Origin: Carcharhinus longimanus
Lineage: Eukaryota
DNA length: 64,000 nucleotides
Assembly: GCA_030264375.1 (NCBI GenBank)
Contig: JASCQW010000148.1
Location: 20,247,622-20,311,621 of the forward strand
Direction of reading: 5' to 3'
Positions 12,001 through 54,000 of this stretch are shown here, piece by piece. How positions within the stretch are numbered: the first letter of the stretch is position 1; the number at the start of each line of letters is the position of its first letter. Position numbers: made by a program.

Positions 12001-15000
12001 GAACCCAAGCTGTTGGCTTTGCTCTGCATCATGGACCAACCGTCCAGCCAAATGAGCTAACCAACCACCCCAATGAGTTAGGGCACTGGTTACATCTCCG
12101 CAGGCATCAAAGCACTCCCGCTCCTCTTTGCTCCATTGAAAGGGATTTAAAAAAAAAAATCACTTGCCTTTTATTGGTGCTGAAGATTCCTGCCTCATTC
12201 ATCATCAACAATAAAAAAAAAGAGTCCCTTAATAGGTTTAAGGACTAACTTAAATATCCATATGTTTTAGGCATCCACCGGGTTTACTCAGAAATAAATG
12301 CATCACAATTTTAGCAGAGACCAATATCTGTGCAGATTAGATGCAAGCTTTTACCACTGCATGTTTGTTCATAAACCATTTTCTTTCTTTCAGCTGATAG
12401 TTATACAATAAGGTTAATTTTATAAATGAGCACTCCTGGCAGGCAGCCTCACCTGTCAGGACCACGTCAGGCATNNNNNNNNNNNNNNNNNNNNNNNNNN
12501 NNNNNNNNNNNNNNNNNNNNNNNNNNNNNNNNNNNNNNNNNNNNNNNNNNNNNNNNNNNNNNNNNNNNNNNNNNACGATATTAGACGTCACATTTACACA
12601 CAGTTGAATATCATGAGTACTCATTATAAAGGAAGCTTGGCAGAATCACTCCAGATCATATGACCATGCGGGAGCTAATTAGACCGGCATGATTCATGAC
12701 CATATAATGAATGATGTGCATCTGGTGACCAGCACATCACTCGTGACCTTGAGGTATGTTTGCCTACCTTCCATAGTGCTGCACTTGCACTGCTCCAACT
12801 TCTTGCCAGGATGCACAGACAAGACCAACAAGTAAGCATGAGGGGTCTCCAGTGCCCAAGATGGCGTGCATGGTCACTCTTCTGTGCCACCAATCCTCAT
12901 GCCCATTGTGTGCAATCACAATCAGGGGAGGCCTCTCTAGACTGTAGATGAGAAAGAAATAATATGTAGGGGCAAGCACTTGATGGTCTTAAGGGAGAGC
13001 AGTCTCTGTAAGTCACAGTGCAAAAGGCTTCAAGGTGGAGGAGGAGTCAGTCAACATGGGCATTGGGCCATCAACATTTCACATTTCACCCTCCATAAAC
13101 TTGAGGTCATTCAAAATTTTACTGCTTCTGTCCCTGCCTCTGCCATCTCTGTAATCTCCAGCTCCTTCCTGACCCAAACCATATACACTCATCTAATTCT
13201 GACTTCTTGAATATCCCTGATTTTTAACTGCTCTACCATGTGTGCTACGCTTTCAGCTGCTCTAGAAGCTGATTTATGGAATTTCGTCCACATTGTTTTC
13301 TTCCTTTAAGGTACTCCTTAAAACTTACCTCTTTGGGCAAGCCTTTGGTCATTGGGCTTGATATTTTGTTATCTGGCTGAAAATCTTGAAAAAGCAATAA
13401 AACTTAATAATATTTCATGACAATTACATCAACAATCATCCCATCATCAACTATGAAGTTTTCCTACCTAACCTGGAAGCTTGTTATACTGGAGGCAACA
13501 TGGCATATTGAAAAACTGCATCAGTGATTTCATTGGTGAGGATTTTGCCCAAAGTCAGTGTCAAATGCAGAAACACTCACCTGGCAGTGATGTTTCTCAA
13601 ATGAGTCAATTTGTGGCCAGAGGGCAGGCTTACCATCCAATTACCAGGCTGGCTCTCAAACCTGGAGGGCTGATCTGATGCCCTCCAACTAGGAAGGAGA
13701 TGAAGCTTGCAGTTCTGGCAAGGCACGAGAGTACTTCCATTTTAAACTGTCCTCTTTGTACATTTTAAAACTTAGTAATCAAAAAAGTGACCTTAGCTGC
13801 TGGGCTGTTATTGTGTATTCTGCAGCTAGGGCAAACAGACAGGAGCGCCTCAGCCTGCCATTTATCCACGCCAAACCCTGGCCGTTTCCACTGCCTTAAC
13901 CCTGATTCCTTAATGAGCTTGCTGGCCAACTGAAAAATTCTGACCATTCTCTAATGCCCTAATCTCATTACCTGCTGCTTTCTGGCAGGTGGACTTTTGG
14001 CCACTATTCCTGCCTCCAGGAAAATGGCAGCAATGGTACTAGCAAATTGGCACTAGTGACACAAATTTTCACACCAACTATCTCTGAACTTGTCCACATC
14101 TAGGGGCAAACGTCTTGCCCACAGTGTCCTGCAAGCAAGGATTGTTGGTTGAGATTCTGTTCTTAAGAGACAATTCTGTTCTTGATGTGCCATTGCTATC
14201 TTGCATGACACAAGTATTTTTGGTATACTTTTGATATAAAATTTTCAAAATCCAAAGTTTAGATCAAAATGAATGCTGTAAAATCTCTTTATTTTGAAAG
14301 ATACCTGCAGAAAATAGCGATCATCATCCAGAAAACATGGCGAGGATATTGTTGCAGGATGCATTTCAGAACCATGGTGCAGGTAAAATCTTTCATTCTG
14401 TTGGGCAATTCTAATTCAGGTAGTTCTTTACCAAGATGCATTAAAATGATATTTTATGCTTATTAAGAATCATTAACCTCTTAATTTTTATTATGTGAAT
14501 GGACTTTCAATTTGAATCTGTCAGAAACCTTTGAAAATGTTCCGTAGAAACATATGGGCCAAGCTAACATTGTTCCAGACCATAGACGAGAGATTGGCCT
14601 TTATAATGCCCAGTTTTCTGGCACACCAGTATCACAGGGGACCCAGGTGTCTACAACATGCACTTGCACTTGTGATGCGAAGCATAGTGGATGCTTTCTT
14701 AGTTAAAAACATCATCACGTGTGCAAGTTAATGTCCAATTGAAGTATGCAGAGCAAGCAGTTAGTGACATCAATCAGCATGCAAGGCTCATTTGACAGCA
14801 ACACTGCCATTTTGGCACTCCACACTGCAATCAGTGGCATTCTCCTAAGTTTGCATAGTTGATCTCACATTTAGTACTAAAAAGGAACCTCAGCTATCAA
14901 CCTCCAGTGGCAGTACTTAAAAGGATTAGCAACAACTTGCAGTTATGTTGTTTGATGATTTCTAAAATACAATTACTTAGAATATTCTGCACAGCAATAG

Positions 15001-51000: not shown

Positions 51001-54000
51001 ACGAGCAAATGGCTTTAAGCTAGAGACTGTTCCTCAAATGGTGTCATCGGGACAGACTGACTATCCACACTCAACTGCCATGCATAATATACATTCTGTG
51101 TCCAAAGGCATGCCATCTAACCCAACCACTTTACCAGCTACAGATTATGATAGAAACCTATATGGAGCGCCATCAATCGGCATGTCTGTGCCAAACCATG
51201 GAGCACTGCCAAACTATCAGTACACATCGTTTCATAACCGGACAATCAAGTCTGAATACCCAGACCACTACGCAAATTCACCAGAATCTCTGGCTGGCTA
51301 CCCCTATCCAGATACCTATCAATCCAATTCTCCTACAGTCCCACAGCTGATTCTAGAGCTCTTACGGTGTGAACCTGATGAACTTCAAGTCCAAACTAAG
51401 ATTTTGACATATCTACAACAGGAACAGGCCAATAGGGGAAAACATGAAAAGCTTAGCACATTTGGCCTCATGTGCAAAATGGCTGACCAGACCCTCTTTT
51501 CCATAGTTGAATGGGCACGCAGTTGTATATTCTTCAGAGAACTTAAGGTAAGACAATCTTCAACTTGATGAGTGTAAGTTGTTGCTGAGGAAGTAATCAA
51601 TCATGCTATTTTGCTCTTGACTAATTATATTGAGCACTGTTTCTTACATTTTCTACATTTACTGATTCTTCAACGAGCAAATATTATACAACAGGGTTCC
51701 AGTTGGCAGGGCTGTATCACCCCCTGTATTGATGACTGCTGTTTACAGTTCTCCAATATCATGCCAGCGGACAGCATGATTTGATTGGAGTCAGACTGTG
51801 TCGATTATCCTGTCAGAGATATGAAAATGTTGTCTTCCTGCAGTCTCATTTGACCTTTTACAGAGGTTGGAGTGGCAGCCATTTGGAACAGTGGTTCTAA
51901 CTCACAGGTTTTTGGTTAAAGGTCAGATACTGAATCACCTAAGCAACTGGGCCACTGCAAGTCTCCTCGAACATGATGATGTTTAAATGTTCTGCAACTG
52001 AAAACTTTGTGCTTCATTTGAGATAATGACTGAGACAGTTTTGAATGTTTCCTTTTCTTATTTCATTTCAGGAAATGATTATCATTGAATCCTAAATATT
52101 CCTTAAAGTACTATTTGGCCTTCCGGAAAAACAATAATTTTAAAACCATTGGGCACCAATGTAAAATATACAAAGAAGTGGACTTTAAAAGCAAGATGTG
52201 TTGTTAGCATCAAAATTTAACTGATCACGTATTAAAATACTTTATATTCTTGGAAAATATACTTCATATGCTTGGAAAATATATTTCTGATTCTTGGAAA
52301 ATATACTACAAATCAAAGAGTTTTGGCTATTCTGGTATCCTGTTACTGATTGAAGAGATTTTCTTGTTCATAGAAACTGAAGTGTGGAATCTTCACTTTC
52401 ATTTAATGAGTTAACCAGGTCAGCCAAGATCTACTAATGGTTCCATTCTCGATCATTCCTTTTATTTTCTTCAGATGACTATTTGAAAAACTATTTCAGG
52501 TCACTTTTTGTGTAACTTGGAAAATGAGTTGCCAAGCTGCCAAGAGGCATGGGAATGAAGACATTAGCTGATATTTATTTGCACATGTGAAGAATCAGAT
52601 TTAGAGATCGTCATTACAGCAGAATAATAAAAGATACAAACTGATATCTCAAAGCAAATATCAGGCATTTCCAAAAAGATAGTGTCATTATTTCAATACG
52701 TTCCAATACGTAACAAGATACTTTGAACGTTTTTAGCCTTGGTACATGCTATCTAAAAATTGGTTTTGGCTTAAATTCTTAGAAACTGAAACTGGTAGTT
52801 GTTATTCACAGATACAATAGTGTAGTGACTATTGTTCTATAGTTTGTTTACTTTTCTCTGAGTCCACACCGTGGCTTAACTAATCAAGCACAGTGAGCAT
52901 CCAAAGTAAACAGACCCACATAATCAAGTACAGAACAATTGAACACTACAGTAATTGCATTACTGGATTACTTTCCAGAGGCTTGAACTAATAACCCAGG
53001 GAGTCAAGTATCATCACACAAATTTGAACTGAACTGTAAACAATTTGAATTTTTGTTTAAAATCAGTAAAAATGAGGGCATGGTTACGATGGGCCAAATG
53101 ACGTCCCATTGTGCTGTAATCCCTGCAGACACAGGGAGAACAGGTAAACTTCGCACAGTCAGTCACCTGAAGCAGTGTTAACCACTTTGCTACCCTAATA
53201 AGATCAAACAAAATTTGACACTAAGCCACAAGGAGATGACCAAAACTTGGTCAAAGGGATAGGGCTATAGGAAGTTACAGAGGTCGGGAGAAATGAGGCC
53301 ACTGAAGGATTTGAAAGCAAGGATGATAGTATAAAATTGAGGCACAGCCAGACAGGAATCCATTCCACGTTAGCGAACAGGACATTATGTAACTTTGGGT
53401 ACAAGTGGCAGCATTTTAAAAGGTTGATGGAGGGTAGTAAGGTGAGAGATCGGCCAGGACAGCACTGAAATTGTCAAGTCTGCAGGTGACAAAGGCGTGG
53501 ATGAGAGTTTCAGCAGCAGATGAGCTGAGGCAGTGTGAGGACAGATGCCATTATGAAGATGGATGTAATCTAATTAAACTACTATAGTTTAAGTAGTGGT
53601 AGACTTCAGTTCTTAAATTGAATGCTACCACTACCTTCCTTAAGCAACTAAGGACTGCAATAACCGCACGCCTTAAGGTGATGCCACATCTCAAGAATAA
53701 ATATTTAACAAAGAAAGGAACCCAACTAATTCAGCAGGCAAGAGGGAATTTTCAAAGATTCATTTGTGATTTAAACTGGTTAAAGTTTAACTAAACCAAT
53801 GCACACTACTCAATTTTTCAAAGCTGCTGAAAATCCCTGTCACTTTTCCCACTGTCAAGACATTCTACCTTATTTTCTGTTAAATATAAAAATAACTACA
53901 ACAGATGAATCAGACACGTTTCCTACCTTTTTCTAATTCCCAAATGATGACTTCTTCCTAATGTTAGCTCTTTGGCTCAAGTGTTAGCCGTCACTGCTCC

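What the first reader, a model, noticed from the sequence alone, without database searches (positions are those of the whole stretch)
14301..51547. SPATA17-like exon upstream of nr5a1 on the same strand: possible same-strand nesting or broken NR6A1-NR5A1 synteny
Seen: an intact 82-bp IQ exon with good splice sites 17 kb upstream of the NR5A1-like exons. By eye I found no preceding or following SPATA17-like exon (the next is expected to be short, of the AAYF.M.MN.YN.MAVR type) in the 64 kb, and no NR6A1 exons. Known: in bony vertebrates NR6A1 lies immediately 5' of NR5A1, and mammalian SPATA17 is on a different chromosome near GPATCH2/ESRRG. Inference: (a) nr5a1 sits inside a very large spata17-like intron on the same strand, (b) the exon is an orphan or duplicated relic, possibly spliced into nr5a1 or lncRNA transcripts, or (c) a misassembly. 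A testis gene hosting the gonadal/interrenal master regulator would be an unusual arrangement.
[Added by the scan's program, not by the reader: the finding's places include an assembly gap (unread letters, written N; its length is only estimated) at 24870 to 24879, 29222 to 29231, 31190 to 31218, 34489 to 34588, 36286 to 36385, 39715 to 39814. Whether the letters on both sides are continuous or in frame is not known: test that first.]
Basis: partly seen in the sequence, partly recalled or inferred. Interest (0 to 1): 0.75.

Follow-up and report, generated by a model that had tools for sequence, protein, structure and literature searches.

The report
Stray SPATA17 exon upstream of shark NR5A1
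A single intact exon of the sperm gene SPATA17 sits about 9 kb in front of a shark's NR5A1 (SF-1) gene, and it looks like a displaced gene fragment or an assembly error rather than one gene nested inside the other.

Summary
The 82-bp exon is real. It lies at 14301-14382 (+), is bounded by ag|..|gt, and encodes 27 residues. Of these, 26 match residues 54-80 of Mustelus asterias SPATA17, the second IQ motif. It is the only SPATA17 piece in the 64 kb.

The downstream gene is the cartilaginous-fish NR5A1 (SF-1) orthologue, which NCBI names "NR5A2-like". The true distance is therefore 8.7 kb, not 17 kb, and both features lie in one N-free stretch, 12575-24869. No gap interrupts an exon, and exons 1-4 follow the protein's order.

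In 8 of 8 species where both genes were listed, SPATA17 and the NR5A1-type gene sit on contigs of different length. These include a shark and a ray. Same-strand nesting is therefore not ancestral and is unlikely here.

The likeliest readings are a displaced unprocessed SPATA17 fragment (0.4) or a chimeric contig (0.35). No NR6A1 exon was detected in the 23 kb upstream, but that span is too short to claim broken synteny. Interest is low.

The parts
14301..14382 (+). Solitary SPATA17 exon encoding the second IQ motif. It corresponds to residues 53 (last codon base) to 80 of Mustelus asterias SPATA17. The acceptor is phase 2 and the donor phase 0.
   Evidence: Sequence and splice sites. Translation. 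The only database hit was SPATA17. tblastn E 4.5e-14. 26/27 identical to Mustelus, 23/27 to Heterodontus, 22/27 to Chiloscyllium. HMM E 1.7e-12. Pfam IQ 22 bits. The best full-length matches among 151 proteins are all SPATA17-type.
12575..24869 (.). Stretch without any N that holds both the SPATA17 exon and NR5A1 coding exon 1
   Evidence: N runs are listed. The stretch has no tandem repeats. Self-BLAST finds no within-window repeat between 9.7 and 21.8 kb.
23100..23163 (+). NR5A1-type coding exon 1 (MSGSASLVAPCSSIKQTAPDS, then one base of the next codon). The donor gtaagt is at 23164. The 5' end of the exon was not determined.
   Evidence: tblastn with the Heterodontus and Stegostoma proteins gives E 2e-5 and 2e-4. 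Sequence. Sharks and rays share this N-terminus.
31390..31508 (+). NR5A1-type exon 2, first zinc finger of the DNA-binding domain
   Evidence: Pfam zf-C4 E 4.2e-9.
31898..32039 (+). NR5A1-type exon 3, second zinc finger
   Evidence: Pfam zf-C4 E 1.9e-18.
50907..51547 (+). NR5A1-type exon 4: the stretch [16 protein letters not shown], the hinge, and the first 41 residues or so of the ligand-binding domain. The later ligand-binding-domain exons are not in the window.
   Evidence: Pfam Hormone_recep E 7e-4 over profile positions 3-43.

Best explanation
The exon is a displaced, solitary piece of SPATA17. It would be an unprocessed fragment, meaning the exon was copied together with its intron borders as genomic DNA. 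It now lies in the 5' flank of the shark NR5A1 (SF-1) gene, 8.7 kb upstream of that gene's first coding exon and on the same strand. The working SPATA17 gene of this species would lie elsewhere, in the conserved ESRRG neighbourhood on another chromosome.

Here the exon makes no SPATA17 protein, because it has no partner exons. It cannot extend NR5A1 in frame. At most it is a bystander, or an occasional non-coding upstream exon.

Shown: the exon's identity, its intactness, its isolation, its distance and phase, and that the two genes are unlinked in other species. Inferred: that the piece is physically present in the genome, that it arose by a small DNA-level duplication, and that it is inert.
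For: The exon is SPATA17 and is intact, with both splice signals, so it was copied as genomic DNA and is not a retrocopy.

It is the only SPATA17 piece among 3368 six-frame ORFs and in tblastn. The neighbouring SPATA17 exons are highly conserved among sharks and would have been found if they were in read sequence.

The exon and NR5A1 exon 1 lie in one N-free stretch, so no scaffold gap needs to be invoked between them.

In 8 of 8 species where both genes were listed, SPATA17 and the NR5A1-type gene sit on contigs of different length:
- Heterodontus: 120.9 vs 62.8 Mb
- Narcine: 321 vs 494 Mb
- Erpetoichthys: 103 vs 197 Mb
- Protopterus: 836 vs 882 Mb
- Microcaecilia: 536 vs 346 Mb
- Xenopus tropicalis: 164 vs 147 Mb
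- Acipenser: 82.8 vs 15.6 Mb
- Polyodon: 77.1 vs 6.4 Mb

SPATA17 is described as single-copy and flanking ERRgamma from lamprey to jawed vertebrates (PMC7617844, passages).

The donor is phase 0 and the NR5A exon-2 acceptor is phase 1, so a direct splice reads CCC GTC AAT TCA AGG TGA and stops. No IQ-like motif occurs in the 120 NR5A proteins.

From my own knowledge, shark nuclear substitution rates are slow. An inert copy could therefore stay intact for tens of millions of years.
Against: There is no second copy to compare with, because I could reach no shark genome. A duplication is therefore inferred, not seen.

No duplication boundaries, target-site duplications or terminal inverted repeats were found around the exon.

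The exon carries no amino-acid change from what the shark alignment suggests was ancestral. At its one difference from Mustelus, the window has the I that 4 of the 6 other shark proteins and all 5 ray-type proteins carry. That fits a functional exon, or the true exon misplaced by the assembler, at least as well as a relic.

The assembly is poor, with 16 N runs in 64 kb.
Confidence: 0.4

Rival explanations
1. Assembly artefact. The exon is this species' true SPATA17 exon, and a chimeric contig or a falsely closed gap somewhere between 14.4 and 23.1 kb has joined SPATA17 intron sequence to the NR5A1 5' flank.
For: This is a draft assembly with 16 N runs in 64 kb and N-free pieces of mostly 2-6 kb. 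The exon is fully intact and ancestral-looking, as the real exon would be. The two genes are on different chromosomes in every species compared. A degenerate LINE tail at about 14.97-15.48 kb (read by eye) and a short interspersed repeat at 21842-21917 lie between the two features and could seed a false join.
Against: There is no N between the exon and NR5A1 exon 1, so the usual scaffolding error does not apply and a contig-level chimera is needed. No tandem duplication or other oddity occurs in 12575-24869. I saw no obvious composition break.
Confidence: 0.35
2. True same-strand nesting, the reader's option (a). In this shark lineage NR5A1 lies inside a SPATA17 intron of more than 50 kb, and the exon is the working SPATA17 exon.
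For: The exon is intact with good splice sites, is on the same strand as NR5A1, and is 26/27 identical to Mustelus SPATA17. Vertebrate SPATA17 genes are long (my own knowledge), so lone exons in 64 kb are expected.
Against: No SPATA17 exon lies on the 3' side anywhere in 14.4-64 kb of read sequence. The genes are unlinked in a shark, a ray and six bony vertebrates. The Mustelus SPATA17 chromosome (103.8 Mb) is similar in size to those of Chiloscyllium (105.9 Mb) and Heterodontus (120.9 Mb) and unlike the 48-65 Mb NR5A1-type chromosomes. Nesting would need a whole locus of more than 50 kb to be inserted in the same orientation into an intron without harming either gene.
Confidence: 0.1
3. Rearrangement breakpoint. 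A translocation or inversion cut SPATA17 after this exon and cut between NR6A1 and NR5A1. That left the 5' part of a now broken SPATA17 in front of NR5A1.
For: This reading would explain both the missing NR6A1 exons and the lone SPATA17 exon on the same strand. No Scyliorhinus or Carcharodon SPATA17 appeared among the 120 best of 435 hits, although that may only reflect clustering or the length filter.
Against: The preceding SPATA17 exon is not in the 14.3 kb upstream. The exon shows no decay. SPATA17 is conserved from amphioxus to mammals, so its loss would be unusual.
Confidence: 0.08

Closest known systems
SPATA17 (spermatogenesis-associated protein 17), second IQ-motif exon, closest to Mustelus asterias isoform X2 (P0122)
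   Same: 26 of 27 residues are identical. The exon limits match the alignment: the preceding codon is completed by the first base, and the exon ends at ...TMVQ just before RAYFIMKMN. It passes the Pfam IQ cut-off.
   Different: Only this one exon is present. The first and third IQ motifs and the whole C-terminal two thirds of the roughly 360-aa protein are absent from the window. It lies beside NR5A1 rather than in the ESRRG/EPRS/USH2A neighbourhood (PMC7617844).
NR5A1 / steroidogenic factor 1 (Ad4BP), cartilaginous-fish orthologue that NCBI names 'NR5A2-like'
   Same: Exons 1-4 are colinear with shark proteins at 94-98% identity. In the exon-4 tree the window falls in a chondrichthyan clade (support 99/95) that is sister to the bony-vertebrate SF-1 clade (98/92) when rooted on NR5A2 (100/100). 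The CESCK|GFFKR exon border is present.
   Different: The window holds only the 5' half of the gene. A coding first exon adds about 22 residues that the Callorhinchus and coelacanth models lack. Exon 4 is about as identical to true NR5A2 (71%) as to bird SF-1 (70%), which explains the database name. Teleost nr5a1a, nr5a5 and a non-vertebrate outgroup were not in the tree.
Unprocessed (duplicated) pseudogene fragments, or orphan exons
   Same: It is a single exon with its intron borders, away from the parent locus, with no partner exons.
   Different: No parent copy could be compared and no duplication boundary was seen. The exon shows no disabling change.
Nested genes (a gene inside an intron of a host gene)
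   Same: The strand is the same and a host-type exon lies upstream of the inner gene.
   Different: No host exon was found downstream of the inner gene, and the two genes are unlinked in other species.

Membership tests
IQ calmodulin-binding motif (Pfam PF00612) | Match to the IQ profile above Pfam's gathering score | tested here: met
   22.0 bits against a cut-off of 20.3, E 1.2e-4, residues 17-36 of the 67-aa ORF
SPATA17 | The exon sequence is closer to SPATA17 than to any other IQ protein over its whole length | tested here: met
   The only hit at E<=10 among 8 word-sharing candidates was Mustelus SPATA17. Among the 150 best representatives of an exhaustive phmmer search plus P0122, the ten best single-stretch matches (95-41 bits) all lie at residues 39-83 of proteins of 370 aa or fewer that match the SPATA17 HMM. 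Multi-IQ proteins match only the 11-20-residue core, at 38.4 bits or less.
SPATA17 | A whole gene: three IQ motifs plus the conserved MNFYNEMAVRIQ block and the C-terminal region | tested here: not met
   The SPATA17 HMM finds one ORF at E 1.7e-12 and nothing else below E 3.3 among 3368 ORFs on both strands. tblastn agrees. Exons hidden in N runs cannot be excluded.
NR5A1 (SF-1) orthogroup | A nuclear-receptor C4 zinc-finger DNA-binding domain followed by the NR5A-type extension [16 protein letters not shown] (the name Ftz-F1 box is recalled) | tested here: met
   zf-C4 E 4.2e-9 and 1.9e-18. The motif can be read in the exon-4 translation.
NR5A1 (SF-1) orthogroup | Phylogenetic placement with NR5A1 rather than NR5A2 | tested here: met
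   Exon-4 tree of 34 rows and 215 columns. The NR5A2 clade has support 100/100. The window sits in the chondrichthyan clade (99/95) with the Callorhinchus protein named NR5A1, sister to bony-vertebrate SF-1 (98/92). The rooting on NR5A2 is assumed and no outgroup was available.
NR5A1 (SF-1) orthogroup | A complete ligand-binding domain | tested here: inconclusive
   Only profile positions 3-43 of 213 are in the window. The later exons are not in 51.5-64 kb.
Nested gene pair (host SPATA17, guest NR5A1) | Host exons on both sides of the guest gene, spliced across it | tested here: not met
   There is one host exon upstream and none downstream in the window. The guest gene runs off the window, so the far side is unseen. 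Splicing cannot be tested here.
NR6A1-NR5A1 tandem | NR6A1 3' exons upstream of NR5A1 on the same strand | tested here: inconclusive
   0 of 145 upstream + strand ORFs of 40 aa or more match Hormone_recep or zf-C4. No NR6A1 protein was available for tblastn. Only 23 kb of upstream sequence is in the window. The tandem is reported for human and mouse (PMC3923872, passages) and for a wrasse (PMC12998091, passages).

The most novel reading that the evidence does not exclude
The arrangement is physically real and used. Either a lineage-specific rearrangement in carcharhiniform or lamniform sharks placed NR5A1, the gonad and interrenal master regulator, inside or directly behind part of the testis gene SPATA17. 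Or the captured IQ exon is transcribed as an upstream exon of nr5a1 or of a promoter-associated non-coding RNA, which would couple the two transcription units.
Probability: 0.1. Interest if true: 0.5.

Novelty: new member of a known kind. Interest (0 to 1): 0.2.

Why it matters
If real, it is one more example of an unprocessed gene fragment, here lying in the regulatory flank of an important developmental gene. That has little consequence unless the fragment is transcribed.

The practical value lies in annotation:
- The exon should not be used to model a SPATA17 gene here, or a SPATA17-NR5A1 fusion.
- The shark gene labelled NR5A2-like is the NR5A1 orthologue.
- That gene has a coding first exon at 23.1 kb that is easy to miss.

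Tried and rejected
I resent it as a 41-aa in-frame stretch of the window.
I wanted it to see where Mustelus and other sharks carry the NR5A1-type gene.
- A retrocopy is rejected. The exon ends exactly at ag/gt borders. The nine residues of apparent read-through (VKSFILLGN against RAYFIMKMN, 3/9 identical) do not continue.
- Another IQ gene is rejected.
- Transposon capture: no direct or inverted repeats of 16 nt or more were found in 12575-16600. A degenerate LINE tail about 0.6 kb away is on the opposite strand (read by eye). I take it as unrelated.
- In-frame fusion to NR5A1 is rejected by splice phase and by 0 IQ-like motifs in 120 NR5A proteins.
- Other genes nearby: Pfam found only noise on 128 minus-strand ORFs in 1-25 kb, and Rfam found nothing.
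- Spliced NR5A or SPATA17 models were never joined. Every search, and the tree, used single exons. The joined step was left out.
- Paper supplements were not seen. The synteny figures of PMC7617844 and PMC12998091 may bear on gene order.
- Searches for SPATA17 with NR5A1 (4 papers) and SPATA17 with shark (3 papers) found no report of this arrangement, judging from the search listings.
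Full report
**What the window is.** The nearest proteins to every coding piece are from sharks. 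I take the window for an elasmobranch scaffold, not human. It is a draft with 16 N runs in 64 kb.

**The exon.** At 14301-14382 on the + strand lies an 82-bp open segment. It is preceded by a T-rich tract and AG, and followed by GTAAAA. Read from 14302 it gives YLQKIAIIIQKTWRGYCCRMHFRTMVQ.
- It passes Pfam's IQ cut-off, 22.0 against 20.3 bits.
- A word-indexed search of 5.8 billion proteins returned one hit at E<=10 among 8 candidates, SPATA17 isoform X2 of Mustelus asterias.
- tblastn of that protein on the window gives E 4.5e-14.
- In an alignment with 18 SPATA17 proteins, the exon is 26/27 identical to Mustelus, 23/27 to Heterodontus and 22/27 to Chiloscyllium. It covers the second of the three IQ motifs.
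- An exhaustive phmmer search of 1.84 billion representatives gave 175 proteins at E<=0.001, and most of the 150 listed matched in several stretches. When the 150 best plus P0122 were re-ranked by their single best stretch, the ten top matches were all at residues 39-83 of short SPATA17-type proteins. Other IQ proteins matched only the core AIIIQKTWRGY, at 38.4 bits or less.

The exon is therefore SPATA17 and not another IQ gene.

**It stands alone.** tblastn with word size 2 and E up to 100 found no other SPATA17 piece. Nor did an HMM built from 119 orthologues and run on 3368 six-frame ORFs of 12 aa or more. The exon's ORF scored E 1.7e-12 and the next best E 3.3. The flanking SPATA17 exons are very conserved among sharks, so they would have been seen in read sequence. 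Exons inside N runs cannot be excluded.

**The downstream gene.** tblastn with the Stegostoma and Heterodontus proteins named 'NR5A2-like' maps four colinear exons on the + strand. The borders were read:

| Exon | Coordinates | Notes |
|---|---|---|
| 1 | ATG 23100 to 23163 | donor gtaagt, phase 1 |
| 2 | 31390-31508 | |
| 3 | 31898-32039 | |
| 4 | 50907-51547 | |

Together they cover residues 1-324 of the 494-aa Stegostoma protein. The later ligand-binding-domain exons are not in 51.5-64 kb. With it, the SPATA17 exon is 8.7 kb from the first coding exon, not 17 kb.

**Gaps.** The program's note asked that gaps be tested first. The stretch 12575-24869 has no N, so no gap separates the SPATA17 exon from NR5A exon 1. 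The gaps at 24870, 29222 and 31190 lie in intron 1. Those at 34489, 36286, 39715, 42049 and 48587 lie in intron 3. None touches an exon, the reading frames and splice phases fit across them, and exon order follows the protein. Physical continuity over the gaps cannot be shown, and I did not try to fill them.

**Which NR5A.** Exon 4 is 94% identical to shark 'NR5A2-like', 79% to coelacanth SF-1, 70% to bird SF-1 and 71% to true shark NR5A2. I built a maximum-likelihood tree of exon 4 alone, with 34 rows chosen from the 120 listed and 215 columns. It gives an NR5A2 clade (support 100/100) that includes the true shark NR5A2. When rooted there, a chondrichthyan clade (99/95) holds the window and the Callorhinchus protein named NR5A1, and it is sister to the bony-vertebrate SF-1 clade (98/92). 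That mirrors the species tree, so the gene is the NR5A1 orthologue. The root is assumed. Teleost nr5a1a, nr5a5 and an outgroup were not available. Exons were not joined for any search or tree, and that step was left out.

**Is nesting plausible?** The protein searches report the length of the contig on which each protein was seen. In all 8 species for which both genes were listed, each on a single contig, the lengths differ:

| Species | SPATA17 contig | NR5A1-type contig |
|---|---|---|
| Heterodontus francisci | 120,885,548 | 62,842,262 |
| Narcine bancroftii | 321,486,706 | 494,489,450 |
| Erpetoichthys | 103,294,605 | 197,358,113 |
| Protopterus | 836,063,838 | 882,488,833 |
| Microcaecilia | 535,506,559 | 346,409,914 |
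| Xenopus tropicalis | 164,033,575 | 147,241,510 |
| Acipenser ruthenus | 82,796,169 | 15,640,301 |
| Polyodon | 77,129,788 | 6,355,234 |

A paper on ERR genes states that SPATA17 is a single-copy gene flanking ERRgamma in jawed vertebrates and the matching locus in lamprey (PMC7617844, passages). The ancestral state is therefore that the two genes are unlinked.

The window's exon shares GYCCRMHFRT only with Mustelus, so the species is probably nearer to Mustelus than to Heterodontus. Its SPATA17 chromosome (103.8 Mb) resembles the SPATA17 chromosomes of other sharks in size, not the 48-65 Mb NR5A1-type ones.

**NR6A1.** NR6A1 and NR5A1 share a locus in human and mouse (PMC3923872), and nr6a1 is tandem with an NR5 gene in a wrasse (PMC12998091). 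In the window, 0 of 145 + strand ORFs of 40 aa or more upstream of 23.1 kb matched zf-C4 or Hormone_recep, while a 41-residue ligand-binding-domain control did match. This is a weak test, and 23 kb is too little in a large genome to call the synteny broken.

**Could the exon feed NR5A1?** Its donor is phase 0 and the exon-2 acceptor is phase 1. A direct splice reads into a stop after five codons. None of the 120 NR5A proteins holds an IQ-like motif. A non-coding role cannot be tested here.

**Surroundings.**
- Pfam found only noise on 128 minus-strand ORFs in 1-25 kb.
- Rfam found nothing.
- No tandem repeats occur in 12575-24869.
- No direct or inverted repeats flank the exon in 12575-16600.
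- Self-BLAST shows no within-window repeat between 9.7 and 21.8 kb and a short one at 21842-21917.
- A degenerate LINE 3' end on the minus strand runs to about 14.97 kb (by eye).

**Verdict.** A real displaced SPATA17 fragment (0.4) and a chimeric contig (0.35) explain the data about equally well. Intactness does not separate them, because shark sequences change slowly (my own knowledge). Nesting (0.1) and a rearrangement breakpoint (0.08) remain possible. A chromosome-level assembly or reads spanning 14.3-23.2 kb would settle it.

Noticed in passing
window 23100-23163 (+): Shark and ray NR5A1-type genes have a coding first exon that adds about 22 residues (MSGS.../MSDS...) before the MDY start. 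The Callorhinchus and coelacanth models (MEY.../MDY...) and, from my own recollection, mammalian SF-1 start at MDY/MEY instead.
   Followed up: yes
window 22861-22890 (+): About 210-240 bp before the ATG the sequence reads AGGTCACCTGACCAAAACAGCCAATCAAAT. It holds a nuclear-receptor half-site, an E-box-like CACCTG and a CCAAT box. From memory, the mammalian SF-1 basal promoter uses an E-box and a CCAAT box, so this may be the core promoter. I did not test it.
   Followed up: no
database names: NCBI names the chondrichthyan NR5A1 orthologue 'NR5A2-like'. A Haliaeetus protein named NR6A1 isoform X1 (P0022) sits next to the Motacilla (bird) SF-1 in the tree. This looks like a naming error, perhaps caused by the NR6A1-NR5A1 adjacency.
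   Followed up: partly
window 56479-56790 (+), inside NR5A1 intron 4: A fragment of a Harbinger/PIF-type transposase (Pfam DDE_Tnp_4, E 2.5e-7) lies within a G+C-richer patch at 55.4-56.8 kb that has long ORFs on both strands.
   Followed up: partly
window 2639-2963, 3257-3566, 4869-5088, 5620-5807, 49752-50059, 59734-59997: An interspersed repeat family with up to 6 overlapping self-matches in the window. A reverse-transcriptase fragment lies at 5294-5587 (+), RVT_1 E 5.9e-6, below Pfam's cut-off.
   Followed up: partly
window 17.8-21.9 kb: The stretch is strongly C-rich on the + strand (GC skew -0.336 at 18-20 kb). It has unusually long stop-free frames, 179 aa on + and 210 aa on -, of low-complexity S/L/P/H-rich translation. 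The 210-aa frame has no Pfam match. These frames are probably not coding.
   Followed up: partly
one search hit list: No Scyliorhinus or Carcharodon SPATA17 appears among the 120 best of 435 hits, although other sharks do. This may be due to clustering or the length filter, or it may mean SPATA17 is poorly modelled in those species.
   Followed up: no
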